DNA of 64,000 nucleotides from Bacilli bacterium. GTDB lineage: Bacteria > Bacillota_I > Bacilli_A > RFN20 > CAG-826. The translations under genes were made by a program, and so were the position numbers. Under the pieces are notes generated by a model. It searched no databases. It saw only the letters and a program-made list of their open reading frames with translations, and was not told the DNA's origin. Each line of letters begins with the position of its first letter. Position 1 is the first letter of the stretch. The DNA lies in contig JAFSOD010000004.1 of assembly GCA_017447165.1 (NCBI GenBank), forward strand, positions 179,267 to 243,266. The letters are read 5' to 3'. Positions 6,258 through 31,831 of this stretch are shown here, piece by piece.

Positions 6258-7418
6258 TTATTCCTCCTCATTTTCACATATATAATTCATTAATCTATTA
6301 CAAGCATCTATTAAATTGCTTCTTGGAGTAGCGATATTTAATCTAATATATCCTTCTGCTGATTTTCCATAGTTAATTCCAGGCGCAACAACTAAGCCTG
6401 TAGATTCTTTTAGTCTTTTTACAAATAACCTTGAATCTTTACTATAATAAGAAATATCAATCCATACTAAATAGGTATAAGTTCCGCTGACAATTTTAAA
6501 ATTCGGATGGTTTTTGCGCAAAAATTCAATCAAAAATGTTCTATTTTCATTTAAATATGAGTTTAATTGATCTACATACTCATCTCCACAAGTAAAAGCA
6601 GTAATAACCGGATCAACTGCAAAATAATTTGGTTCACCAATATCGTCTTGCCAAAACCCGTTTTGCACCATTTCTTTTAACTCGTTATTAGGGATAATAG
6701 CTACTGAAGAATGTAATCCAGCAACATTAAATACCTTACTAGGAGATAACAATGTAATTACTTTGTCGTATTGAGTGACTCCACTATTTAAAATAGAGAT
6801 ATATCTTCCTTTATTTAGATCAATATCGCCATGAATTTCATCAGATATTACATAGACATTATTTTGTTTACATAGGTTAATTATCTTATTTAATTCATCT
6901 ATTGTAAATTTTCTTCCTAGTGGATTATGAGGATTACATAATAAGAAAAATTCCGCTCCATGTAGTTGAGTTTCTAGTTTTTTCCAATCAATACTAAGAT
7001 CTTTATCTAGAATAAATTCACACTCCTTTAGAACTAAATTATTGTTTTTGATACAGTTAAAAAACACATTATAAACAGGGGTGAACATTACAACTTCATC
7101 TTTTGGTTCACCTAAATGTTTAAATATAGAATCAATTGAGGCCACAACTGATTTAGAAAATATAAACCAATCTTTTTCTAATGTTGTGCTATGTCGATCT
7201 CTCCACCAACGAATATATGCTTGGTAATATGAATCAGGGACAAATGTATAGCCATAGCAAGCTTGCTCTGCCCTAGCTTTAATTGCTTTTTTTATTTCTG
7301 GCATAGCCATAAAATCCATGTCGGCAATATCTAAAGGAAGTTCACCTTCATTTACATTCCAACGAATACTACATGATTCTTTTCTATTTATAGAAGCATC
7401 AAAATTATATTTGCTCAT
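6258..7418 (-). CDS. PLP-dependent aminotransferase class I/II, MalY/PatB-type C-S lyase
   Basis: 386 aa. PLP-lysine region LSPSKVFNVAGLHSS and overall MalY/PatB-like layout. Confidence 0.75.
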   Translation of the reverse strand: MSKYNFDASINRKESCSIRWNVNEGELPLDIADMDFMAMPEIKKAIKARAEQACYGYTFVPDSYYQAYIRWWRDRHSTTLEKDWFIFSKSVVASIDSIFKHLGEPKDEVVMFTPVYNVFFNCIKNNNLVLKECEFILDKDLSIDWKKLETQLHGAEFFLLCNPHNPLGRKFTIDELNKIINLCKQNNVYVISDEIHGDIDLNKGRYISILNSGVTQYDKVITLLSPSKVFNVAGLHSSVAIIPNNELKEMVQNGFWQDDIGEPNYFAVDPVITAFTCGDEYVDQLNSYLNENRTFLIEFLRKNHPNFKIVSGTYTYLVWIDISYYSKDSRLFVKRLKESTGLVVAPGINYGKSAEGYIRLNIATPRSNLIDACNRLMNYICENEEE

Positions 7419-22402: not shown

Positions 22403-24858
22403 TATTCTTTCTTCTCCTCGACTTCAGCGTCGATGACGTCACCTTTATTTTCTTGAGGTGCTTCTTCTACTGGTTTCTTTTCAACTTTAACATTAACAAG
22501 ATTTAAAACAGCATCAACAGAGGCAATGTTTAAACATTCTCTAAACATTTTATAGCCTTCGTTAACATAGTCTTGAAGTGGGTTGACATTCGCGTAGCTT
22601 CTTAAGTGAATACCTTCTCTTAATCTCGCCATCGCATCAATATGTTTGGTCCAGTTTTGGTCAATGCATCTTAAGATAAAGTTTCTCTCAATGTTTTGAG
22701 CGAGGTCTTCTGGCCATTCTTTTCTTCTTTCAAGATAATAATCTTGAATTGCCTCACCTAAATCTGGTCCACATTCTTCGGGATAAGATTCATCAAAGGC
22801 GACAGCGTTTAAAGATCCTGCTGGTAAGAAACGAGGCTCAACTTCTTTTAAGAGGAGTTCACCACTAACCAAGTTAGAGTTAGACCCCACTGGAACGGCT
22901 TTTTGAGATAAGAATTCGCCTGTAGTCTTAAAGACTTCATCAATAATGTCTTGAATATTCTTGCCTTCAATAATACGGTCACGTTTGTCATAGACAATTT
23001 GTCTTTGTTTGGCTAAAACGTCATCATATTCAAGTAAAGATTTACGAGTGTCAAAGTTTTGTCCTTCGATTCTCTTTTGAGCGGAGGTAATAACTCCAGA
23101 TACCAGTCTTGCTTCAAGAGCTTCTTCTCCGAAGTTCTTTTCAATATAGTTACGCATATTATCCGCAGCGAAACGAATTAATAATTCGTCATCAAAGGAA
23201 ACATAGAATCTGGAGAATCCTGGATCACCTTGACGTCCACTACGACCACGTAATTGGTTATCAATACGTCTAGATTCATGTCTTTCAGTACCCAAAACAC
23301 ATAAACCTGAAAAGTTGTAATAGCCTTTCTTCTCAAGCTCCTTTTTCTTATCTTCTGGGACTGTGGATTCTAAGTTTCTGACTTCGTCAACAATTTTAAT
23401 ATCAGTACCACGACCTGCCATGTTAGTAGCAAGGGTGATAGAACCTTTTCTACCAGCATCTTTAATAATTTCCGCTTCACGAGCGTGGTTTTTAGCATTC
23501 AACATTTCGTGTTGTAAGCCAGCCGCAGTTAATAAAGCAGAGATTTCTTCGGAAGATTCAACTGAGACAGTACCAATTAAAATTGGTTGACCGATTTCAT
23601 GTCTCACTTTAACTTCTTCCACCAAGGCTCTTAATTTTGGTCCTTTATGTGCATAGATATAATCAAGTGCGTCCACACGAGCGATAGGTCTATTTGGTGG
23701 AACACAAACAACACGCATGTTGTAGATTTTTCTAAATTCTTCTTCTTCAGTTTTAGCGGTACCAGTCATACCTGCCATCTTCTTATATAGACGGAAGAAG
23801 TTTTGATATGTAATAGTGGCTAAAGTTGTGGTTTCTTGTTTGATTTCCACATTTTCTTTAGCTTGAACAGCTTGATGTAAACCATCACTCCATTCTCTTC
23901 CCGGAAGGACACGGCCAGTAAATTGGTCAATGATTTGCACTTGTCCTTCGGCATCGACTAAATAGTCGACATCTCTAAACATAATATAGTTCGCTCTTAA
24001 AGCGTTATGGATTCTATGGACTAAATCAGCGAATTCTGGATCATATAAATTTTTGATGCCAAACATTCTATCTGCTTTAGCGTTACCTTCATCAGTTAAG
24101 TTAACAGTCTTATCTTTAACGTCAACAACAAAGTCGACATCTTTCTTTAAGGCCTTAACAAATCTATCGGCAACTGTATATTGAGAGGCGCTGGCTCTAG
24201 CACCACCAGAAATAATAAGAGGGGTTCTAGATTCATCGATCAAGATGGAGTCAGCTTCGTCAACAATACAGAAATTGAGCCCTCTTAAAACTCTATTTTG
24301 CATAGAAGTCGCCATGTTATCTCTTAAGTAGTCGAAACCTAATTCAGAGTTTGTGGTATATGTGATATCACATAAATAAGCTTCTTTCTTTTCAGAAGTA
24401 GTCTTTGTTCTTAAGTTAACTCCAACAGTTAAACCTAAGAATCTATAAATTTGGCCCATCCAGTTCGCGTCACGTTCTGATAAGTATTCGTTAACAGTAA
24501 CAACGTGAACGCCATTACCAGCTAAGGCGTTTAAATAAACTGCCATAGTGGCTGTTAAGGTTTTACCTTCACCAGTTTTCATTTCCGCGACATCGCCAGA
24601 ATGTAAAACTAATGAACCAATAATTTGAACTTTGTATGGGAATTCCGCAAGTGTACGTCTAGCTGCTTCTCTAGCGACGGCAAATGCTTCGATTTTGATA
24701 TCGTCTAAAGTCTTTCCGTTAGCGAGTAACTCTTTAAAGTATGGAGTCTTCGCTCTTAATTCATCATCGCTTAGGGCTTTCATCGATTCTTCTAAGGCGA
24801 TAACCTTATCCGCAATCTTTGAATATTTTTTAAGCGCCATTTTGTCAAATAAGCCCAT
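22402..24858 (-). CDS. secA: preprotein translocase ATPase SecA
   Basis: 818 aa with canonical SecA motifs (MKTGEGKTLTATM, DEAD-like) throughout. Confidence 0.95.
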   Translation of the reverse strand: MGLFDKMALKKYSKIADKVIALEESMKALSDDELRAKTPYFKELLANGKTLDDIKIEAFAVAREAARRTLAEFPYKVQIIGSLVLHSGDVAEMKTGEGKTLTATMAVYLNALAGNGVHVVTVNEYLSERDANWMGQIYRFLGLTVGVNLRTKTTSEKKEAYLCDITYTTNSELGFDYLRDNMATSMQNRVLRGLNFCIVDEADSILIDESRTPLIISGGARASASQYTVADRFVKALKKDVDFVVDVKDKTVNLTDEGNAKADRMFGIKNLYDPEFADLVHRIHNALRANYIMFRDVDYLVDAEGQVQIIDQFTGRVLPGREWSDGLHQAVQAKENVEIKQETTTLATITYQNFFRLYKKMAGMTGTAKTEEEEFRKIYNMRVVCVPPNRPIARVDALDYIYAHKGPKLRALVEEVKVRHEIGQPILIGTVSVESSEEISALLTAAGLQHEMLNAKNHAREAEIIKDAGRKGSITLATNMAGRGTDIKIVDEVRNLESTVPEDKKKELEKKGYYNFSGLCVLGTERHESRRIDNQLRGRSGRQGDPGFSRFYVSFDDELLIRFAADNMRNYIEKNFGEEALEARLVSGVITSAQKRIEGQNFDTRKSLLEYDDVLAKQRQIVYDKRDRIIEGKNIQDIIDEVFKTTGEFLSQKAVPVGSNSNLVSGELLLKEVEPRFLPAGSLNAVAFDESYPEECGPDLGEAIQDYYLERRKEWPEDLAQNIERNFILRCIDQNWTKHIDAMARLREGIHLRSYANVNPLQDYVNEGYKMFRECLNIASVDAVLNLVNVKVEKKPVEEAPQENKGDVIDAEVEEKKE

Positions 24859-24956
24859 AATAATACCTCCTAGTTTTCTTTAATTAATAAAGAATGGATT
24901 AAACATTCGCTAATTAATATATCATTTATGTATTAGTCTTGGCTAATACAAATTGT

Positions 24957-25583
24957 TTAATATTCTTCTTTCTTTTTCTTTTTGGTTTTCGCTATTACTA
25001 ATATTTCGATAGTTTTTGCTCCTTTGCTTCTTAATAAATCGATTGAAGTTAAAAGTGTGCTTCCTGTAGTCATAATGTCATCTACTAACAATATCTTTTT
25101 ACCCTTCATTGATATATTTTCATCTATTTCTAAAACATCATTTATCTTATGTCTTCCAAGTGAAGATTGATCAGACTGTTTATGCGCTGTTTTCTTCTTC
25201 AAAATGGGTAATTCTTTAAGCTTTAAACTCTCAAAAATCGCTTTTACGTGATTAAAACCACGCCGCTCATCATCAATGTGATAAGAAGGTATATAGACGA
25301 TATGATAACCATGATATTTTAACTTCAAAAAAGTTAGATATCGATCTAAGAAAACATCCTTTAATTCATAGTCATAACAACCTTTAAATTTATAGATTAA
25401 TTCCTTTATAAAATCTGTATATTCATAGACGGCTGTCCCTTTTATATTTCCTATTTCGAAAGACACAAATTTAGCCTGTAATTTACTAAAACAATCTCCA
25501 CATAAAATGTTCTTCCTTTTCAATAAGTTATATATGGAATTATCCGTTATTCTTTTAAAGCAAATTTTACAGAAATTATCCAT
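24957..25583 (-). CDS. comFC: competence protein ComFC (phosphoribosyltransferase-like)
   Basis: N-terminal CxxC...CxxC, C-terminal PRTase motif LLVDDIMTTGSTL. It overlaps the end of comFA. Confidence 0.85.
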   Translation of the reverse strand: MDNFCKICFKRITDNSIYNLLKRKNILCGDCFSKLQAKFVSFEIGNIKGTAVYEYTDFIKELIYKFKGCYDYELKDVFLDRYLTFLKLKYHGYHIVYIPSYHIDDERRGFNHVKAIFESLKLKELPILKKKTAHKQSDQSSLGRHKINDVLEIDENISMKGKKILLVDDIMTTGSTLLTSIDLLRSKGAKTIEILVIAKTKKKKKEEY

Positions 25584-26775
25584 TATCTAATGCCTCATTA
25601 TTCTTCTTTATTTCTTCTATAGATTCTTTAATATCGGAAGTCACTTTTTCGCATAGATAAATTACTTCTCCTTCTGGCGCATCAGCCTTTCTTCCCACTC
25701 GTCCTGCGATTTGAATTAAAGTGCCTTTTTCATATATTTTATGGTCAGTTTGACTGATAATTACCTGCAAATTCTTTACAGTTACCCCTCTTTCTAGTAC
25801 TGATGTAGTTACTAAATATGAAAATAAGTGATTACGAAATTCTTCGATTATTTCAGATCTATAATTCCTTTTAGAATGAACATAATTTCCACCTTTAACA
25901 AATAAGGAAATTACTCTATAGATTTTCTCACATAAATTAATGGTGGGAGCAAAAACAAATACAGGTTTGTTATTTTTCTTATATTCCTTTATTTTTCTAA
26001 TTAAATATAAGTATTGAAATAGCGTATTTCGTTTAACTATTTTGGGTATTGGAAGAGGATGACGATGAAAACGAACTTCTAATCTTAATATATCTTTGTT
26101 ATCTCCATGGAAATGATCTATTACTTCTTTAGATGGAGTGGCGGACATCATAACATAATGACCACACAAAGATTGATAGAACATGCTATGTAATGTTGGA
26201 TCATCTTTAAACGGAAAAGCGTCTATCTCATCTAGGATAATTAAAGAGAAATAATTCTTGTATCTATATAGTTGATGTGTGGTTAGGACAACTATATCGC
26301 CTTCTTTATCTTTTGTGTGCCCTCCATATAAGCAAACCACTTTGTTATATTTAAATATTTCTCTTAACCTATTATGTAATTCTATTGCAACATCTCTTCT
26401 AGGGAGCGCAAACGCGACCTTATCGCCACAATTAATTGCATATTTAATAATGTTGAGGCAAATTTCAGTCTTTCCTGATCCACATACAGCAAAAACAAGA
26501 CTATCTATTCCTTTCTTATAGTTCTCCACTAACTTATCGGATAATTCTTTCTGTTCTGGAGATAGCTCGTACTCTAAATGAATAGGTGCTTTCTTGGGAT
26601 AAGATGGCTTATGTTCTACTTCTTCACCACGAAAAGAGATACACCTACGACAATAGGGTTTGCCATTAAGATATCCAATTGAATGTATATCGGTGTTACC
26701 ACAAATAGGGCATTTATAAGTTTCTATGTTGCAACATCTCCTTTCTTTTGATTTAATATTTATACAACCTGTCAC
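25576..26775 (-). CDS. comFA: competence helicase ComFA (zinc finger plus DEAD-box helicase)
   Basis: 4-Cys zinc finger CPICGNTD...CRRC, Walker A AVCGSGKTE, DEID, SAT and helicase C motifs. The annotated start is GTG at 26775. The position that is ATG in the paralogous copies is ATA here (26725-26727). Confidence 0.85.
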   Translation of the reverse strand: MTGCINIKSKERRCCNIETYKCPICGNTDIHSIGYLNGKPYCRRCISFRGEEVEHKPSYPKKAPIHLEYELSPEQKELSDKLVENYKKGIDSLVFAVCGSGKTEICLNIIKYAINCGDKVAFALPRRDVAIELHNRLREIFKYNKVVCLYGGHTKDKEGDIVVLTTHQLYRYKNYFSLIILDEIDAFPFKDDPTLHSMFYQSLCGHYVMMSATPSKEVIDHFHGDNKDILRLEVRFHRHPLPIPKIVKRNTLFQYLYLIRKIKEYKKNNKPVFVFAPTINLCEKIYRVISLFVKGGNYVHSKRNYRSEIIEEFRNHLFSYLVTTSVLERGVTVKNLQVIISQTDHKIYEKGTLIQIAGRVGRKADAPEGEVIYLCEKVTSDIKESIEEIKKNNEALDNG

Positions 26776-26938
26776 GCAGAGCTAAATAGGCTCAGACAGG
26801 TTTTTATTTTAACTTAACAGGTTTTCTTCTTTTTATAATTCTTATTGTCAATCTATCATCAGGGTGTATTTTCATACCAATCAATTCTCTTGATCCAAAA
26901 TGCTTACGTTTACCCTGAACAGGTCTATTGTTCACAAA

Positions 26939-27127
26939 CTAAGCCTTAACTTTATTTTCGGTAGGATGTTTTAGTTTTGTCTGATGTCTATGTTGAGATG
27001 TTCCTGTGATAACAGCAATATAAATGTTCTTTTTATCATTCTTTAAAACAATTAAACCAGGGTGTTTGTTTACTATATAAAATTTTCCTTTTTCTAAATG
27101 TTTGTTATAAATCTTTTTCTTACTCAT
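26939..27127 (-). CDS. small basic protein, family A (short form), cassette 1
   Basis: 62 aa MSKKKIYNKHLEKGKFYIVNKHPGLIVLKNDKKNIYIAVITGTS..., homologous to the 29037-29441 product. SD AGGAGGAAAT precedes it. Confidence 0.5.
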   Translation of the reverse strand: MSKKKIYNKHLEKGKFYIVNKHPGLIVLKNDKKNIYIAVITGTSQHRHQTKLKHPTENKVKA

Positions 27128-27142
27128 ATTTCCTCCTTTCTG

Positions 27143-27424
27143 TTATGTATTTCGTGTTTTTGGGGATCCACATACGGCAAAAACTAAACTATCAATTCCT
27201 TTTTTATAATTCTCTACCAGCCTATCTGATAATTCTTTTTGCTCTGGAGACAACTCATATTCAAGATGAATAGGTGCTTTCTTTGGGTAAGATGGTTTAT
27301 GTTCTACTTCTTCGCCTCGAAAAGAGATGCATCTACGACAATAAGGTTTGCCGTTTAGATAGCCAATAGAATGAATATCAGTGTTGCCACAAACTGGACA
27401 AGTAAATGAAAGCTGGTTATCCAT
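27143..27424 (-). CDS. stand-alone ComFA N-terminal zinc-finger domain paralog (ends at the Walker-A position), cassette 1
   Basis: 93 aa. It is identical to ComFA residues 22-100 or so except K to R, yet its DNA differs at about 15-20% of positions, almost all synonymous. It ends ...AVCGSPKTRNT*. Its ATG overlaps the stop of the upstream small ORF. Confidence 0.6.
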   Translation of the reverse strand: MDNQLSFTCPVCGNTDIHSIGYLNGKPYCRRCISFRGEEVEHKPSYPKKAPIHLEYELSPEQKELSDRLVENYKKGIDSLVFAVCGSPKTRNT

Positions 27425-27821
27425 TTTTCTTGCCTTTCTTTTTATGTTTTGATTTAATACTGGTAGATGGTGTGCGCCCTTTCTGGGTTAAAGCTTCATT
27501 CGTTAGCTTTCCACCATTTTTTCTTTGCTCTTTAATTAGTGAAACATATACATCTATTTTTATTTCATCGGAAACTACTAAACGATACTTTTTAAGTTCT
27601 TGTCCTCTATGTCGGAGTTTATCTTTTCTTATATACTTTCTGAAATAAGATTTCTTGTCTGAATTGGGATTTGGATTTACATCAAATTCTTCATAATTTC
27701 CAGTTACAGTTGGACTATCAGTTATTTCGATATTTTCCCATGTTCCATCTTCTAGAACACTGATTTCTATTGATGGGTGGTATTTAGTTCTTTTGTTTTT
27801 AAATATTTTATATTTATTCAT
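27417..27821 (-). CDS. small basic protein, family B, cassette 2
   Basis: 134 aa. Shares motifs KxHPSIE..., NPNP and RKY(I/L)RKD...RGQ with the 28361-28687 product. Confidence 0.5.
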   Translation of the reverse strand: MNKYKIFKNKRTKYHPSIEISVLEDGTWENIEITDSPTVTGNYEEFDVNPNPNSDKKSYFRKYIRKDKLRHRGQELKKYRLVVSDEIKIDVYVSLIKEQRKNGGKLTNEALTQKGRTPSTSIKSKHKKKGKKNG

Positions 27822-27840
27822 GTATCAATTCCTTTCTATG

Positions 27841-28113
27841 TTATGGATTTGTTGTTTTTGGTGATCCACATACGGCAAAAACAAGACTATCTAAGCCTTT
27901 TTTGTAATTCTCAACTAACTTATCCGATAGTACTTTTTGCTCTGGAAACAGTTCGTACTCTAAATGAATAGGCGCCTTTTTAGGGTATGATGTTTTGTGT
28001 TCCACTTCTTCACCTTTAAAAGAGATACACCTACGGCAATAAAGTTTGCCGTTCAACATACCAATTGAATGAATATCAGTGTTACCACATACAGGACATT
28101 TATAAGGTTCCAT
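27841..28113 (-). CDS. stand-alone ComFA N-terminal zinc-finger domain paralog, cassette 2
   Basis: 90 aa MEPYKCPVCGNTD...CRRC...AVCGSPKTTNP*, about 90% identical to the ComFA N-terminus. It has its own SD AAAGGTGA. Confidence 0.6.
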   Translation of the reverse strand: MEPYKCPVCGNTDIHSIGMLNGKLYCRRCISFKGEEVEHKTSYPKKAPIHLEYELFPEQKVLSDKLVENYKKGLDSLVFAVCGSPKTTNP

Positions 28114-28142
28114 ATTGAATTATCACCTTTCTTTTGATTTAA

Positions 28143-28226
28143 AATAGCCATAGTCGTGGTCATCACTAGTTTGATGCCGGCCCACAGGAAGCTGTGTAGC
28201 TCCATTAACGGGGCTTTTTATTTTTA
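28143..28226. repeat. structured element copy 1 (two hairpins plus GC stem and U-run on the plus strand)
   Basis: GGTCATCActagttTGATGCC, then CACAGgaagCTGTG, then AGCTCCattaacGGGGCT followed by TTTTTATTTTT. It is homologous to 28975-29062 with compensatory changes in the middle stem. Confidence 0.5.
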
Positions 28227-28360
28227 CGGTTTTATAATATTTGCCATATATTGGGCATTTATAAGTTTCTATATTGCGTTACCTCCTTAATTTTGTTTTA
28301 ATATTTGTAGTTAGTGCTATCGGTTAATCCGACCAAAGCCCAAGTTTAGTAGGTTTTACA

Positions 28361-28687
28361 CTAACTTTTTTTGTTGTTTAAATAGTTTTCAATTTCAATT
28401 AAATCATCTTCTGATAGGTTGAATTTTTCCAAAAGTTGACCTCTTGTTTTAATTGGATCCTTTCTTAAATACTTTCTAACATATGCTTTATCATTTCTTT
28501 TTGGATTCGGATTTACTTTAAGCTCAATATATCTGTTCTTCTTAGTGGGGCTTGAAGTTACTTCTAAATTAATCCAAATAGTTCCGTTTGAATCTACTTC
28601 TATGCTTGGATGATTTTTTGTTTTTCTGTTTTTATAGAATTTGAATTTTTTGCTCATTTGACACCTCCTTTTTGTTATGGTTTTCAA
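28361..28687 (-). CDS. small basic protein, family B, cassette 3
   Basis: 108 aa. Same family as the 27417-27821 product. Confidence 0.5.
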   Translation of the reverse strand: MKTITKRRCQMSKKFKFYKNRKTKNHPSIEVDSNGTIWINLEVTSSPTKKNRYIELKVNPNPKRNDKAYVRKYLRKDPIKTRGQLLEKFNLSEDDLIEIENYLNNKKS

Positions 28688-28694
28688 GTCTTTG

Positions 28695-28952
28695 GTGATC
28701 CTTATATCGCATAAACTAAATTATCTATCCCTTTCTTATAGTTCTCCACTAACTTATCCGATAGTTCTTTCTGCTCAGGGGGACAACTCATACGATAAGT
28801 GAATTGGGGCCTTACGATATGAAGGCTTATGTTCCACTGCTTAACCCTTAAAATAGATACATCTTCGGGAGTAATGTTTGCCGTTTAGGTATCCTATTGA
28901 ATGAATACCAATGTTTCCACAAACTGGGCATTTATATGTTTCGATATTGCAT
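28695..28952 (-). pseudogene. degraded comFA 5' copy (zinc-finger fragment with frameshifts), cassette 3
   Basis: Nucleotide homology to comFA codons 1-90 runs through the conserved junction GGTGATCC..., but indels break the reading frame. The ORF track finds no ORF over 60 aa here. Confidence 0.55.
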
Positions 28953-28974
28953 CATCTCCTTAAATTTGATTTAA

Positions 28975-29062
28975 TAATGTCATGGTCGTGGTCATCACAA
29001 GTTTGATGCCGACTCGTAGGTAACTACGCAGCTCCATTAACGGGGCTTTTTTATTTTTTTGC
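28975..29062. repeat. structured element copy 2
   Basis: GGTCATCAcaagttTGATGCC, then CGTAGgtaaCTACG, then AGCTCCattaacGGGGCT followed by a T-run. It overlaps the 3' end of ORF 29037-29441. Confidence 0.5.
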
Positions 29063-29441
29063 GTTTTTTATAATAAGAACCGTAAATAGGATTACCTTTT
29101 TGTACTTTAATAATTAAATACATATCTTGGATGCTAAACGACATATCTGGATATTCTTTTTCTCCGTAATCATTTCTATCTCCTATAAAAGGTCTTTTCT
29201 TTATTAGCGATATTTCAACGTTACTATCGGTTGCATGTTTTAATTTGTAATATCCTTTTCTTAAACCTAGACGATCAAATTCTTCTTTGGTCATTGATCC
29301 AGTGATAATTGCATAGAAAGCTTTATCTTCATTATCAATTTTAAAAATTTGTCCAGGATGTCCACCTGGGCTACCATCTAAAACACGATAAAACTTGCCG
29401 ATTTCAAGTGTTATCTTGTGTTTTCTTTTCTTTTTACTCAT
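29037..29441 (-). CDS. small basic protein, family A (long form), cassette 4
   Basis: 134 aa MSKKKRKHKITLEIGKFYRVLDGSPGGHPGQIFKIDNEDKAFYAIITGS..., with a KOW/SH3-like G-x-x-Y-x-V...G...G-x-I pattern. The lysine-rich C-terminus is encoded by the terminator A-tract. Confidence 0.5.
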   Translation of the reverse strand: MSKKKRKHKITLEIGKFYRVLDGSPGGHPGQIFKIDNEDKAFYAIITGSMTKEEFDRLGLRKGYYKLKHATDSNVEISLIKKRPFIGDRNDYGEKEYPDMSFSIQDMYLIIKVQKGNPIYGSYYKKRKKIKKPR

Positions 29442-29478
29442 ATTTTCCTCCTTTCTTGTTATGTTTTTAGTATCTTTA

Positions 29479-29612
29479 GCGATTCACATACCGCAAAAAT
29501 AATCTATCAATTCCCTTCTTATAGTTCTCCACTAACTTATCTGATAGTTCTTTCTGCTCTGGAGACAGTTCATATGAAAGATGAATAGGTGCTTTCTTAG
29601 AATATGAATGTT
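29479..29612 (-). pseudogene. truncated comFA 5' copy (about 45 codons upstream of the Walker-A position only), cassette 4
   Basis: Homology to comFA covers only the segment ...HLEYELSPEQKELSDKLVENYKKGIDS.. and junction, then is lost. Confidence 0.5.
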
Positions 29613-29894
29613 ACTCTATGAAAAACGAAAACATTTCCTTCTTCATCAACGATATTTGCTGGGTGGTTGTTTTTTAAATAAATTCTGAAGTGCCTCCTGA
29701 AAGAACTATTTTTTGTTTTTGTTTCATTTTTTCTCCTTTATGTTATGTATTTATTTCTTGTAGATCAGGGCGGCCTTTATTTTTTTATAGGTTTTCTCCT
29801 TTTATAATTGATAAAAAACTCCCTACATTATATATAGAGTGGCTTTCTTCATTTTTTTGTGAAAAAAAGTTTAATAAATCTTTATAGGTATTAA

Positions 29895-29914
29895 AAAAAG
29901 GCCTATAGGCCTTT
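29895..29914. terminator. rpiB terminator
   Basis: AAAAAGGCCTATAGGCCTTT palindrome. Confidence 0.7.
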
Positions 29915-29935
29915 ATGTATTAAATATTTTTTAGA

Positions 29936-30373
29936 TTATTTTTCTAAGTCGTTAATCATCTCAACACGAGTTAAGTGTCTACCACCTTCAAATTCAGTGT
30001 TAAGGAAGATATCCACTCTTCTAAGAACATCTTCTAAAGCCATAAATTTTTGACCAAAGGAGATAACGTTTGCGTCATTATGTTGTCTCATTAATCTAGC
30101 AACTTCATCGTTATAGGCAATACCGCATCTAACGCCTTTGATTTTATTAGCCGCAATAGAGATACCCTCTCCACTAGTGCAGACAACAACACCAAATTGA
30201 CATTTTTTAGAAGCTACTTTTCTAGCTACTTCAGCGCCATATAAAGGATAATGGCAACTATCTAAAGAATAAGTACCAACATCAATTACTTCATGTCCTA
30301 ATTCTTTTAAATGTTCTGCGATCGCGTTTTTATATTCTAATCCGCCATGATCACTACCAACTGCAATTTTCAT
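29936..30373 (-). CDS. rpiB: ribose-5-phosphate isomerase B
   Basis: 145 aa. MKIAVGSDHGG, CTSGEGISIAANK, and catalytic Cys region typical of RpiB/LacAB. Confidence 0.9.
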   Translation of the reverse strand: MKIAVGSDHGGLEYKNAIAEHLKELGHEVIDVGTYSLDSCHYPLYGAEVARKVASKKCQFGVVVCTSGEGISIAANKIKGVRCGIAYNDEVARLMRQHNDANVISFGQKFMALEDVLRRVDIFLNTEFEGGRHLTRVEMINDLEK

Positions 30374-30384
30374 ATTGATACCTC

Positions 30385-30978
30385 CTATAAGACTTTCTCA
30401 ATATTTTTTAAAGATATAGGTCCCTCTCTAACAATTTTAACTTGTTCTCCAGTAAGGTCAACTATTGTTGAAGGAACTCCACCTAAAGCAAATCCTTCAA
30501 GTATATAACCTAGTTCATCATTAAATATCTCTTTTACTTCATACGAAGTAAGCGCAGGTTTACATCCACTTTTATTTGCGGAAGGAACTAATAAAGGAGA
30601 ACCCACAAATTGAATTAAGTCTTGAACTAGTTTAATATCAGGAACTCTAATTCCAATTACACCTGTATCATGAGTGACATAAGTAGGAACGTTACCTCTA
30701 CTTTTAAGTAAAACAGTAATTGCTCCAGGCATAAAAGCTTTAATAACTTTTAACTCTCTTTCAGACACATATGCATACTCTTGGATATCATCAACTGAAC
30801 CTAACATTAAAGTATAAGGTTTATCTTCTGGACGTCCTTTAATTTCGTTTAAAAGTTTGTAGGCAGTAAAGTCGTTATAATAAACTCCTAAGCCCATAAC
30901 TGTTTCAGTAGGAAAAGCGATGACTTTAGATTCATCAAGAGCCTTTTTAGCGAGTTCAAATTCCTTAGTTGAGTGCAT
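30385..30978 (-). CDS. tsaC: L-threonylcarbamoyladenylate synthase (YrdC/YwlC-type, short form)
   Basis: 197 aa YrdC fold (PTETVMGLG, KGRPEDKP), in the prfA-prmC-tsaC-rpiB arrangement. Confidence 0.8.
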   Translation of the reverse strand: MHSTKEFELAKKALDESKVIAFPTETVMGLGVYYNDFTAYKLLNEIKGRPEDKPYTLMLGSVDDIQEYAYVSERELKVIKAFMPGAITVLLKSRGNVPTYVTHDTGVIGIRVPDIKLVQDLIQFVGSPLLVPSANKSGCKPALTSYEVKEIFNDELGYILEGFALGGVPSTIVDLTGEQVKIVREGPISLKNIEKVL

Positions 30979-31831
30979 CAGTTAATTCCTTGTTATTAAT
31001 AATATATAAGAATCTAGTCTTTCCATACATATCTTTATCAAAACTATATAGCAGACCACTATAATTCTTCTCTAATAAATCAGTTAATTCTTCTTCCATA
31101 TCTTCCCCGATTTCAAAGGCAATTAAAAACTTGTTATCGTTTAATAACTGCCTATCAATAGAGGTTAATATCTCTTTATAGAATTTAATAGCAGGATCTG
31201 CAAATAAAGCAAGATGTGGTTCATACTTTAAAGTCTGTTCTGCCACAGTATCTTTACTTCTAATATATGGAGGGTTTGAGACAATTACAGATATATCAGA
31301 TTCATTAGATATTGGTTTTAACATATCACCTTCTCTAAAATCGATTTCAATATGATGTTCTTTCGCGTTAATTTTAGCAATATCTAGCGCTTTTGACGAA
31401 ATATCAGCGCAAATTACGGTGCTTTCTAGAAAATATTCTTTTAAATAGATTCCTAAAATTCCAGAGCCAGTACCAATATCCACGATCTTAATTTTAGGAT
31501 CTTTTCCAAATAGCTTTACAATCTTTGTCATCGTGGTAACTGCGAGTTGTTCTGTCTCTTGACGAGGGATTAAAACATCAGGGCTAACTATATAATTACT
31601 ATTAACAAAATAAGCATATCCTAAGATATATTGAAGTGGCTCTCCTGAGGTTAATCTATCGAGTTGATAATTAAGCTTATTCTCATCTTTAAGTTGTTCA
31701 TCAAAATGTTTAAGTAAATCAAAAAAATCTACAAATCCACCATTATCAATTAATAGGGATTTAATAGATGTTTGGTTGAGATATTGATTATCTAATTTTT
31801 TAAGTTCAAAAAACTTCTCGCGGTAAGTCAT
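30965..31831 (-). CDS. prmC: release factor glutamine N5-methyltransferase PrmC/HemK
   Basis: SAM motif VDIGTGSGILG and catalytic NPPY (VSNPPYI). Confidence 0.9.
   Translation of the reverse strand: MTYREKFFELKKLDNQYLNQTSIKSLLIDNGGFVDFFDLLKHFDEQLKDENKLNYQLDRLTSGEPLQYILGYAYFVNSNYIVSPDVLIPRQETEQLAVTTMTKIVKLFGKDPKIKIVDIGTGSGILGIYLKEYFLESTVICADISSKALDIAKINAKEHHIEIDFREGDMLKPISNESDISVIVSNPPYIRSKDTVAEQTLKYEPHLALFADPAIKFYKEILTSIDRQLLNDNKFLIAFEIGEDMEEELTDLLEKNYSGLLYSFDKDMYGKTRFLYIINNKELTDALN

What the first reader, a model, noticed from the sequence alone, without database searches (positions are those of the whole stretch)
27128..29770. Conserved cassette junction at the Walker-A codon (GGATC core) carrying the RBS of the downstream small ORF
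In every unit the comFA-like sequence ends at ...GTATGTGGATC(A/C), encoding VCGS. It is followed by a conserved cassette-specific stretch CCAAA(A/G)AC...CATAACA(n)AAAGGAGG...ATG. Intact comFA reads GGATCAGGAAAGACTGAAAT (GSGKTEI) at that spot. Homology decays gradually over about 20 nt after GGATC. A further relic of the same junction (TTTTCTCCTTTATGTTATGTATTTATTTCTTGTAGATC) with a 17-codon ORF stub is at 29674-29766, consistent with an older fifth cassette. A fixed boundary at a specific codon is the hallmark of a site-specific or homology-anchored insertion module.
Basis: seen in the sequence. Interest (0 to 1): 0.55.

Follow-up and report, generated by a model that had tools for sequence, protein, structure and literature searches.

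The report
Stacked gene cassettes splitting comFA
Upstream of the DNA-uptake motor gene comFA, this rumen bacterium carries a stack of small nuclease-like gene cassettes, each bringing a replacement copy of the first 90 codons of comFA that joins the resident gene at its ATP-binding (Walker-A) codons, so the gene stays intact and the displaced old front ends pile up as fossils.

Summary
In the window, five comFA 5' copies plus one start-only remnant lie between rpiB and comFA. Each full copy stops at the Ser codon of GSGKT and continues with the same junction: CCAAArAC..AAAt.CATAACA..AGGAG..ATG. The same junction, at the same nucleotide, occurs at 28 or more sites in about 18 related rumen Bacilli assemblies. 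It also forms the tail (…VCGSPKTRKT*) of about 80 of the 120 best-matching protein clusters.

It is not a generic ribosome-binding context, and GGATC itself is not invariant.

Cargo genes are a diversified, un-annotated small-protein superfamily, one member of which has a predicted MazF-like fold, plus a YhcG/PDC-S02 nuclease.

A roughly 640-bp unit (cargo, hairpin, leader, codons 1-90) is 95-100% identical in two genomes. It is fused to the working gene in one and displaced in the other. Two near-identical genomes differ in the 5' module, with the switch inside the Walker-A codons.

Best reading: serial, function-preserving insertion at the P-loop codons, with the newest unit next to the gene. 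No recombinase was found, so the joining mechanism is unresolved.

The parts
25576..26727 (-). Intact comFA-like gene: N-terminal 4-Cys motif plus SF2 helicase. The Walker-A sequence GGATCAGGAAAGACTGAAAT lies at 26481..26462. The apparent start codon is ATA at 26727..26725, about 10 nt after AAAGGAG.
   Evidence: Pfam DEAD, ResIII and Helicase_C. The gene overlaps a ComFC-type phosphoribosyltransferase gene at 24957..25583. Start position read.
26770..26815 (-). Cargo-specific hairpin (CCTGTC...GACAGG), preceded by an A-run on the gene strand.
   Evidence: Sequence. The same element follows the same cargo type in L022.
26816..27127 (-). Newest cargo gene (fam1b-like), with an in-frame TAG after codon 62; probably a pseudogene.
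   Evidence: A single tblastn match spans 26816-27127. The ORF is 62 aa. The stop was read.
27128..27169 (-). Junction B: GGATCC|CCAAAAACACGAAATACATAACAGAAAGGAGGAAAT.
27143..27424 (-). Displaced comFA 5' fragment B: intact 93-codon ORF ending GSPKTRNT*.
   Evidence: Against the intact copy pS is 0.66 and pN 0.04.
27417..27821 (-). Cargo fam2a (134 aa), predicted MazF-like fold. Its stop overlaps the start of fragment B.
   Evidence: AlphaFold pLDDT 83. The 50 best Foldseek PDB matches shown are MazF-family toxins (MazF, MoxT, YdcE/EndoA and related endoribonucleases). The L151 copy is 98.5% nt identical, in a genome whose comFA is 52% identical.
27822..27867 (-). Junction C.
27841..28113 (-). 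Displaced comFA 5' fragment C: intact 90-codon ORF ending GSPKTTNP*.
28140..28290 (-). Remnant unit C'. A comFA leader and first codons (28290-28241) are fused by a microhomology deletion to the last codons of a fam1a cargo and its 75-nt 3' element (28225-28140).
   Evidence: (families D2 and D5).
28300..28345 (-). fam2b-specific hairpin (AGTTAGTG...CACTAACT).
   Evidence: It is part of the 95-100% identical block shared with L021, L028 and L038.
28361..28660 (-). Cargo fam2b (99 aa).
28661..28701 (-). Junction D.
28687..28960 (-). Displaced comFA 5' fragment D; a pseudogene with stops and a frameshift.
   Evidence: Two tblastn segments; alignment.
28975..29050 (-). fam1a-specific 75-nt 3' element with three hairpins and compensatory changes.
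29037..29441 (-). Cargo fam1a (134 aa).
   Evidence: Linked to fam1b-d by hhalign at probability 98.4.
29442..29481 (-). Junction E (degenerate: GAATCGCTAAAGATAC...).
29482..29612 (-). Displaced comFA 5' fragment E; only codons of about 44-90 remain.
29613..29727 (-). Oldest cargo: a frameshifted fam3 pseudogene, with the 17-codon stub at 29727..29674.
   Evidence: Sequence. blastn to the fam3 genes of L010 and L151.
29728..29766 (-). Relic junction F (GATCTACAAGAAATAAATACATAACATAAAGGAG).
   Evidence: (families D9 and D11).

Best explanation
The region is a fossil stack of small insertion cassettes that target the Walker-A (P-loop) codons of comFA without inactivating it.

A complete unit is about 0.65-1.3 kb and has five parts:
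1. A left end that looks like a mutated Walker-A stretch (nCCAAArAC.CGAAAt). It contains the stop codon for whatever comFA front end lies upstream (inside CATAACA) and a ribosome-binding site.
2. One cargo gene.
3. A cargo-specific hairpin.
4. The comFA leader and ribosome-binding site.
5. A surrogate comFA 5' module: codons 1 to about 90, covering the zinc-finger region up to Gly-Ser of GSGKT.

Insertion joins the surrogate module in frame to the resident GKT... helicase body. The resident 5' part, now ending ...GSPKTRNP*, is pushed upstream, where it decays. Repeated insertion at the reconstituted Walker-A site builds an array whose newest unit lies next to the working gene.

Cargo can also be exchanged on its own between arrays, with breakpoints at the junction and at the comFA start. 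Cargo genes are nuclease-like: a fast-diversifying small-protein superfamily with a predicted MazF-like fold, and a YhcG/PDC-S02 PD-(D/E)XK nuclease. They most likely act as defence or addiction-type genes.

Shown here:
- the anatomy of the unit
- the constancy of the junction
- mosaic comFA genes
- a shared unit in terminal versus displaced position
- the decay polarity

Inferred:
- that insertion is the generating process
- that it is site-specific, or driven by the short conserved P-loop sequence
- that the DNA arrives by natural transformation
- what the cargo does

The joining enzyme is unknown.
For: 1. Same breakpoint everywhere.
- There are 24 truncated copies in 13 species-level assemblies plus the window.
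- There are 4 more in metagenome contigs.
- About 80 of the 120 listed 90%-identity protein clusters end VCGSPKT(R/T)(K/N)(T/P)*.

2. The same breakpoint occurs on native, diverged front ends. These are 59%, 50% and 45% identical to the window module in L075, L090 and L151. With an AGC-type Ser codon the junction reads GGCAGA|CCAAAAAC.

3. Relatives without cassettes have rpiB followed by comFA after 24-124 bp.

4. Mosaic genes.
- In cassette genomes, residues 11-90 are 92-99% identical to the window. Identity falls to 53% directly after GSGKTEI, and the rest of the protein is 46-72% identical.
- Against L026, the body of the gene has pS 0.18 and pN 0.014, but the 5' module has pS 0.66.
- The last mismatch against L026 lies 22 nt before the end of the Lys-Thr codons.

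5. A shared unit. L030 and L016 are 95-100% identical from about 25 nt before the cargo ATG to ...GCGGATC, and unrelated beyond. In L030 the module is part of the intact gene. In L016 it is followed by a junction and another cassette.

6. Polarity. In the window, fragments B and C are intact, D has stops, E is truncated and F is a relic. The same gradient is seen in L013, L016, L020, L023 and L028.

7. Displaced fragments carry strong purifying-selection signatures (dN/dS 0.03-0.07 at near-saturated dS). This implies that they were parts of working genes for most of their history.

8. Long homology is unlikely as the vehicle. Modules are only 82-87% identical in nucleotides, with mismatches at about every second third-codon position.

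9. Cargo.
- Foldseek matches fam2a to MazF-family toxins.
- Profile links connect fam2 to fam3, fam2 to fam1b-d, and fam1b-d to fam1a.
- fam5 matches YhcG_C at E 1e-51 and PADLOC PDC-S02 at E 2.5e-114.
- Cargo is near-identical in genomes whose comFA is 52% identical.
Against: - No integrase, transposase or other recombinase lies in any array or in the called genes of the flanks that were annotated.
- There are no terminal inverted repeats.
- The most recently shared blocks often exclude the 5' module. fam2b is shared from -40 to +400 only. fam2a of the window and L151 is shared only over the cargo ORF with its upstream ribosome-binding region. Cargo swapping by short-flank recombination is therefore at least as frequent as whole-unit insertion.
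- All junctions are homologous to each other. A single ancestral scar, spread and maintained by recombination and gene conversion, cannot be excluded.
- Cassette-free genomes could be secondary losses.
- The cargo's MazF resemblance is structural only: Foldseek E 0.02-0.2 and TM 0.5-0.6, with no Pfam or PDB sequence match.
- The fam1a model gave no convincing fold match.
- Competence of these uncultured organisms is assumed, not known.
Confidence: 0.6

Rival explanations
1. Passive hotspot. One ancient illegitimate event created a comFA 5' duplicate with a scarred Walker-A junction. Everything since then is ordinary homologous recombination after transformation, unequal crossing-over and gene conversion between arrays. 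Cargo genes are swapped through the conserved junction and leader 'handles'. There is no dedicated insertion mechanism.
For: - All junctions are homologous to one another.
- No recombinase was found.
- Cargo-only exchange is bounded by the junction and the comFA start.
- Clean loss of cassettes by recombination between direct repeats would regenerate cassette-free genomes.
Against: - 5' modules within and between genomes are near saturation at synonymous sites (pS 0.5-0.73). This leaves few perfect stretches for RecA-type recombination and shows no concerted evolution inside arrays.
- The polarity of decay is not expected from unequal crossing-over.
- The handles shared between the window and L151 are only about 25 nt at about 80% identity.
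- The module swap between the window and L026 ends inside the Walker-A codons, not at random conserved patches.
Confidence: 0.25
2. Functional operons. The truncated 90-aa zinc-finger peptides are themselves functional, for example as antitoxins to the MazF-like cargo or as dominant-negative or antisense regulators of comFA. The repeats are then kept by selection rather than left behind.
For: - Fragments B and C are intact ORFs with dN/dS 0.03-0.07.
- The gene order of small upstream ORF followed by a MazF-like ORF mimics mazEF.
- Each unit has a hairpin that reads as an intrinsic terminator on the antisense strand. It shows G.U pairs and a T-run on that strand, and alifold gives -24.0 against -18.5. 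An antisense RNA over the comFA 5' region is therefore conceivable.
Against: - Many fragments are frameshifted, internally deleted or reduced to their last 15-40 codons, while the cargo downstream stays intact.
- Cargo genes occur with no fragment upstream (L001) or outside the locus (L003).
- pN is higher in fragments than between intact modules.
Confidence: 0.08
3. Programmed variation. The fragments are silent cassettes used to switch the N-terminus of ComFA by gene conversion, as in pilin- or vls-type systems.
For: The architecture of several partial copies upstream of one expressed gene resembles silent-cassette loci.
Against: - The copies encode almost the same protein, 88-99% identical, with differences mostly synonymous. 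There is nothing to vary.
- ComFA is cytoplasmic or membrane-associated (PMC9005727).
- The copies decay.
Confidence: 0.03

Closest known systems
Integrative elements that insert into the end of a gene and carry a surrogate end, with tandem accretion at the regenerated site (my knowledge: tRNA-gene islands, SCC elements at rlmH/orfX, ICE/CIME accretion)
   Same: - The target gene stays functional because the element supplies a replacement end.
- An imperfect direct repeat of the target core flanks each unit.
- Serial insertion builds composite arrays.
- Some array members lack their own recombinase.
   Different: - Units are only about 0.65-1.3 kb with a single cargo gene, and none encodes a recombinase.
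- It is the 5' end of a protein gene that is replaced, about 270 nt.
- The crossover lies inside the P-loop codons.
- The surrogate ends are anciently diverged at synonymous sites.
Integron gene cassettes and integrase-less attC clusters (CALINs) (my knowledge)
   Same: - Arrays of single, mostly promoterless ORFs.
- Each ORF is followed by a cassette-specific hairpin.
- Cassettes lack a recombinase.
- Cargo is exchanged between distant genomes.
   Different: - No IntI gene was seen.
- The hairpins lack the RYYYAAC/GTTRRRY core (by eye).
- The repeated element is a coding fragment of the target gene.
- The newest unit is distal to the upstream promoter region, not proximal.
Orphan toxin/immunity modules downstream of cdiA and rhs genes (my knowledge)
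   Same: Arrays in which each variable cassette is preceded by a fragment of the main gene that ends at a fixed conserved motif. Displaced modules persist as fossils.
   Different: - Here the fragments are 5' ends lying upstream.
- The cargo is a separate ORF, not a fused toxin tip.
- The main gene is a helicase, not a toxin.
Inteins and homing-endonuclease elements that sit in P-loop codons of ATPases (my knowledge)
   Same: A selfish insertion targets the most invariant codons of an ATPase gene and preserves the function of that gene.
   Different: - Function is preserved by replacing the gene's front end, not by protein or RNA splicing.
- The displaced native part remains.
- No homing-endonuclease activity has been shown.
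MazF/PemK endoribonuclease toxins
   Same: - The predicted fold of cargo fam2a matches MazF-family toxins (MazF, MoxT, YdcE/EndoA) in all 50 matches shown.
- Similar size.
- Conserved H-P and T-x-S motifs at positions that by eye correspond to MazF's R-P and T.
   Different: - No Pfam PemK match and no sequence-profile match to any PDB chain.
- No adjacent antitoxin gene.
- His replaces the catalytic Arg.
YhcG / DUF1016 PD-(D/E)XK nucleases; PADLOC candidate defence system PDC-S02
   Same: Cargo fam5 matches both Pfam domains and PDC-S02 over its full length.
   Different: In these genomes it sits as a cassette whose last codons overlap the start of comFA. The defence function is a prediction by the database's authors and is untested here.

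Membership tests
ComFA (target gene) | SF2 helicase/ATPase core with Walker A | tested here: met
   Pfam DEAD 4.8e-18, ResIII 6.7e-15 and Helicase_C 1e-12. GSGKT is present in the sequence.
ComFA (target gene) | N-terminal four-cysteine metal-binding motif | tested here: met
   CPxCG...CRRC is present in every copy. The motif's role is known from the Chilton et al. 2017 paper listed in the references of PMC9005727.
ComFA (target gene) | Operon partner ComFC (phosphoribosyltransferase-type) | tested here: met
   The overlapping downstream ORF matches Pribosyltran at 1.1e-13. The same synteny occurs in about 45 loci.
ComFA (target gene) | Required for DNA uptake in transformation | not testable with these tools
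   The organisms are uncultured. No ComFA-specific NCBIfam model or PDB chain matched.
Site-specific integrative element with gene-end reconstitution | Identical junction, at nucleotide resolution, on independent and diverged targets | tested here: met
Site-specific integrative element with gene-end reconstitution | The element carries a surrogate gene end that becomes part of the working gene | tested here: met
   The L030/L016 shared unit. The module swap between the window and L026.
Site-specific integrative element with gene-end reconstitution | A cognate recombinase, on the element or identified in trans | tested here: not met
   No recombinase lies in any array or in the flanks whose called genes were annotated: L001-L009, covering 4-16 kb around the gene. 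Whole genomes were not available.
Integron / CALIN | IntI integrase and an attI site next to the array | tested here: not met
   The arrays are flanked by rpiB, prmC and prfA on one side and comFC and secA on the other.
Integron / CALIN | attC sites with conserved R''/R' cores | tested here: inconclusive
   Cargo-specific hairpins exist. No RYYYAAC...GTTRRRY pair was seen by eye, and no attC model was run.
Insertion sequence / MITE | Terminal inverted repeats and target-site duplication of a few base pairs | tested here: not met
   No inverted repeats at unit ends. The 'duplication' is the 270-nt gene front end.
MazF/PemK toxin (cargo) | MazF fold | tested here: met
   fam2a model pLDDT 83. 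Foldseek probability about 1, TM 0.5-0.6, E 0.02-0.2 to MazF-family toxins. The fam1a model gave no such match.
MazF/PemK toxin (cargo) | Sequence membership (Pfam PF02452) | tested here: not met
   PDB profile searches.
MazF/PemK toxin (cargo) | Adjacent cognate antitoxin gene | tested here: not met
   Only comFA fragments or comFA flank the cargo.
YhcG / PDC-S02 (cargo fam5, in related genomes) | DUF1016_N plus YhcG_C PD-(D/E)XK domains | tested here: met
   Pfam 2.4e-39 and 1.2e-51. PADLOC PDC-S02 2.5e-114.

The most novel reading that the evidence does not exclude
These units are a previously undescribed class of recombinase-less mobile cassette that spreads by natural transformation. They home to the P-loop codons of comFA, the very gene whose product imports them. 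They keep that gene working by 'front-end replacement'. This would be a third solution, beside intron splicing and intein splicing, for living inside a gene that must stay functional. The array would then be a chronological record of invasions by defence-type nuclease genes.
Probability: 0.3. Interest if true: 0.85.

Novelty: new variant of a known kind. Interest (0 to 1): 0.7.

Why it matters
If the reading is right, four consequences follow.

- It shows a compact way for small defence or addiction genes to move between bacteria whose genomes are too diverged for ordinary homologous exchange. They use the universally conserved P-loop codons of a competence gene as the landing site and repair the damage with a carried gene front end.
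- It would link natural transformation directly to the spread of a selfish or defensive cassette.
- It defines a new, easily searchable genomic signature: truncated ComFA peptides ending GSPKTRxx*.
- It brings to light a sizeable un-annotated protein superfamily with a predicted MazF-like fold. There are 93 clusters at 50% identity.

It also poses a clear question. The 90-residue ComFA front end is conserved at 90-99% across genomes whose helicase bodies are about 50% identical, although the DNA encoding it is saturated with synonymous changes. I have no explanation for this.

Tried and rejected
- Rfam scan of 24500-31000 at E<=1: no match. The hairpin elements are therefore not known RNA families.
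- Pfam, PHROGs, NCBIfam and PADLOC on the small cargo proteins: no significant match.
- Phage records, IMG/VR and plasmids: no relatives of fam1a or fam2a. The cargo is therefore not evidently phage- or plasmid-borne.
- The direct profile comparison of fam2 (A2) with fam1a (A3) was negative. The link holds only through wider alignments.
It gave 116 chance matches and 4 real junctions, all at comFA. It is only a weak test of 'other target genes'.
- A dif/Xer-like site in the junction, a hairpin between the module end and the junction, and sigma-70 promoters in the junction on either strand were all considered by eye. All were dropped for lack of match or covariation.
- Terminal inverted repeats: none.
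- 'Recent horizontal transfer of the 5' module' as the sole reason for its high protein identity was rejected. Synonymous sites are near saturation.

Full report
**1. What is in the window**

All genes in this part of the window lie on the minus strand. The order is prfA, prmC, tsaC-like, rpiB (30373..29936), the array (29766..26770), comFA (26727..25576), comFC (25583..24957), secA, prfB.

I call the helicase comFA on three grounds:
- It has DEAD, ResIII and Helicase_C domains.
- It has an N-terminal CPxCG...CRRC motif.
- It overlaps a ComFC-type phosphoribosyltransferase gene.

ComFA is known as the DNA-dependent ATPase of Gram-positive transformation and binds ComFC (PMC9005727). No ComFA-specific model or solved structure matched. 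The name therefore rests on architecture and synteny.

**2. Checking the observation**

The repeat finder reports three full and two partial copies of the comFA 5' region. Each copy follows comFA up to ...GTATGTGGATC. It then reads nCCAAArAC...AAAt.CATAACA..AGGAG..ATG where the intact gene reads AGGAAAGACTGAAAT.

- The similarity continues through AAAGAC and GAAAT, with a constant GG-to-CC change and one added base.
- The truncated reading frame ends GSPKT(R/T)N(T/P)*, with its stop inside CATAACA, a few bases before the ribosome-binding site of the next ORF.
- Within the 64-kb window the motif occurs only in the array (4 hits against 0.05 expected).

Reading from the oldest end (high coordinates) towards comFA, the array is:
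- relic junction F, plus a frameshifted cargo pseudogene (29727..29613)
- fragment E (partial), its junction, and cargo fam1a (29441..29037) with a 75-nt structured tail
- fragment D (stops and a frameshift), its junction, and cargo fam2b (28660..28361) with its hairpin
- remnant C', in which a comFA start is fused by a microhomology deletion to the last codons and tail of another fam1a cargo
- fragment C (intact, 90 codons), its junction, and cargo fam2a (27821..27417), which overlaps the next fragment
- fragment B (intact, 93 codons), its junction, and a fam1b-like cargo with an in-frame TAG at codon 63 (27127..26816), followed by its hairpin
- the intact comFA gene

That makes at least six cassettes. 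Decay increases with distance from the working gene.

**3. The same structure elsewhere**

Both cargo families have more than 100 unnamed relatives in metagenomes. Where context is available they sit at the same place, between rpiB and comFA. The one exception is L003.

A scan of one genome per species with fragment B returned 42 loci. All are rumen or gut uncultured Bacilli MAGs. Analysis of these loci shows three things.

- **Cassette-free relatives.** In these, rpiB is followed by comFA after 24-124 bp.
- **Cassette-bearing relatives.** These have 0.5-3.9 kb of array with one to five units.
- **A constant breakpoint.** There are 24 clear truncated copies in 13 assemblies and the window, all cut after the Ser codon and all followed by the same junction. 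The wobble bases vary (GGATC, GGTTC, GGGTC), so GGATC is not a fixed DNA core.

Three of these four junctions sit on front ends of native, diverged type. They are 59%, 50% and 45% identical to the window's module. Two of them read GGCAGA|CCAAAAAC where the resident intact gene has GGCAGCGGTAAAAC.

In the 5.8-billion-protein collection, the 120 best relatives of fragment B are almost all 72-117 aa long. About 80 of them end VCGSPKT(R/T)(K/N)(T/P)*.

**4. Evidence that units are inserted and that the front end is replaced**

- **Mosaic proteins.** In 17 cassette-bearing genomes whose helicase body is 46-72% identical to the window's, residues 11-90 are 92-99% identical. The drop comes directly after GSGKTEI. 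In cassette-free genomes the front end is as diverged as the rest, or more so.
- **A module swap between close relatives.** L026 has a helicase body almost identical to the window's (pS 0.18, pN 0.014). Its front module is at pS 0.66. The last mismatch is 22 nt before the end of the Lys-Thr codons, and identity is 100% from GTATGTGGATCAGG onwards.
- **A shared unit.** L030 and L016 share a block that is 95-100% identical. It runs from about 25 nt upstream of a fam1b cargo ATG, through the cargo, hairpin, leader and front module, to ...GCGGATC. In L030 this is followed by the resident GKT... body, giving a working gene. In L016 it is followed by a junction and a further cassette, making it a displaced fragment. 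This matches what serial insertion at the Walker-A codons predicts.
- **Polarity.** The decay gradient seen in the window recurs in L013, L016, L020, L023 and L028.
- **History of the fragments.** Displaced fragments differ from intact modules mostly at synonymous sites (dN/dS 0.03-0.07), yet many are broken. They evolved as parts of working genes and then began to decay.

**5. What limits the inference**

- Front modules are old. Any two are only 82-87% identical in DNA, with pS of 0.5-0.73, whether taken from one array or from different genomes. This rules out recent duplication and concerted evolution within arrays. It also makes long-homology recombination an unlikely vehicle. The high protein identity therefore reflects unusually strong constraint as well as exchange, which I cannot explain.
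- The most recently shared segments are often cargo-only. fam2b is 95-100% identical in the window, L021, L028 and L038 from about 40 nt before its ATG to the comFA start, while flanking modules are at 40-80%. The window's fam2a is 98.5% identical to that of L151, with flanks at 57-61%.
- Two processes therefore act: exchange of cargo between existing arrays, and insertion of whole units.
- No recombinase gene, terminal inverted repeat or known att or attC signature was found.

**6. The cargo**

- **fam2a.** It folds with confidence (pLDDT 83). All 50 listed Foldseek matches are MazF-family toxins (MazF, MoxT, YdcE/EndoA and related endoribonucleases), at modest scores.
- **fam1a.** The model gave no convincing match.
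- **Links between families.** Profile comparisons link fam2 to fam3 (probability 97.9%), fam2 to fam1b-d (74%), and fam1b-d to fam1a (98.4%). Most small cargo genes therefore form one diversified superfamily with conserved H-P and T-x-S motifs.
- **Size and annotation.** The superfamily has 93 clusters in the 1.84-billion representative library and no Pfam family.
- **fam5.** A fifth cargo type, found in related genomes and 330 aa long, is a YhcG/DUF1016 PD-(D/E)XK nuclease. It matches PADLOC's candidate defence system PDC-S02.
- **Distribution.** No relatives were found in phage, IMG/VR or plasmid collections.

Nuclease-like cargo, rapid turnover and near-identical copies in distant hosts fit defence or addiction genes. 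No function was tested.

**7. Comparison with known systems**

The logic is closest to integrative elements that reconstitute the gene end they interrupt and then accrete in tandem. It also resembles integron cassette arrays and the orphan modules of cdiA and rhs loci.

It differs from all of these in four ways:
- The units are minute and carry no recombinase.
- A 5' coding module is replaced.
- The breakpoint lies in P-loop codons.
- The target is the competence ATPase gene.

Choosing invariant P-loop codons as the landing site parallels inteins and homing elements.

I found no description of this arrangement in the searchable literature. That is absence of evidence only.

**8. Verdict**

The mechanism of joining remains open.

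I rate it a new variant of a known kind, with a real chance that it is a distinct class of element.

Noticed in passing
window 26727..26725 (minus strand); the same position in L016, L018, L020, L022-L025, L027, L029, L030, L033, L034 and L038: The intact comFA has ATA where other copies have the ATG start, about 10 nt after a conserved AAAGGAG. About 13 of 25 related intact genes share this (GCAATATAGAAAC against CAATATGGAA). In several of them an in-frame TGA lies just upstream, so no alternative start is available. This suggests a weak non-canonical start codon.
   Followed up: partly
window 28975-29050 and 28140-28225; L004 and L009 at about 6390-6475: A 75-nt element follows fam1a cargo genes and is conserved across genomes. 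It shows compensatory changes (CACAG/CTGTG, CGTAG/CTACG, CGCAG/CTGCG). It has no Rfam match. It folds better on the strand antisense to comFA (-24.0 against -18.5 kcal/mol), where it ends in a hairpin plus T-run.
   Followed up: partly
window 26770-26815 and 28300-28345; related loci: Every cargo family has its own 3' hairpin, preceded by an A-run that coincides with a Lys-rich C-terminus. On the opposite strand these read as intrinsic terminators, with G.U pairs where the gene strand has C-A mismatches. This raises the possibility of antisense transcripts across the comFA 5' modules.
   Followed up: partly
all comFA 5' modules: The 90-residue front module is 90-99% identical in protein across genomes whose helicase bodies are about 50% identical. 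Its synonymous sites are nevertheless near saturation (dN/dS 0.01-0.07). Cassette-free relatives show no such conservation. I have no explanation for this.
   Followed up: partly
window 26939-26941 (minus strand): The cargo gene nearest the working comFA, which should be the newest, carries an in-frame TAG after codon 62. The reading frame continues in homology for about 40 more codons.
   Followed up: no
window 28241-28290: One unit was largely deleted between the comFA codons CCAATATGTGG and the similar fam1a codons CCAATTTATGG. This is an example of microhomology-mediated loss inside the array.
   Followed up: no
window 27417-27460; L010, L011, L012, L014, L033, L035, L037, L040: fam2a and the long forms of fam3 share the same C-terminal tail (...IKxKxKKKGKKNG*), which overlaps an MDN/MEN-type comFA start. 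The 3' end of the cargo and the gene start thus form an exchangeable module of their own.
   Followed up: no
L003 2555-2875: A fam2a-like gene lies outside the comFA locus, between a LOR-family gene and a Wzy_C gene. It has its own ribosome-binding site and no junction or comFA fragment.
   Followed up: partly
L013 2199-2537; L038 5004-5592: These are chimeric ORFs in which pieces of the YhcG-type cargo are fused to the last codons of a comFA fragment (...LVYAVCGSPKTLKT). They show repeated internal deletions that keep the junction.
   Followed up: no
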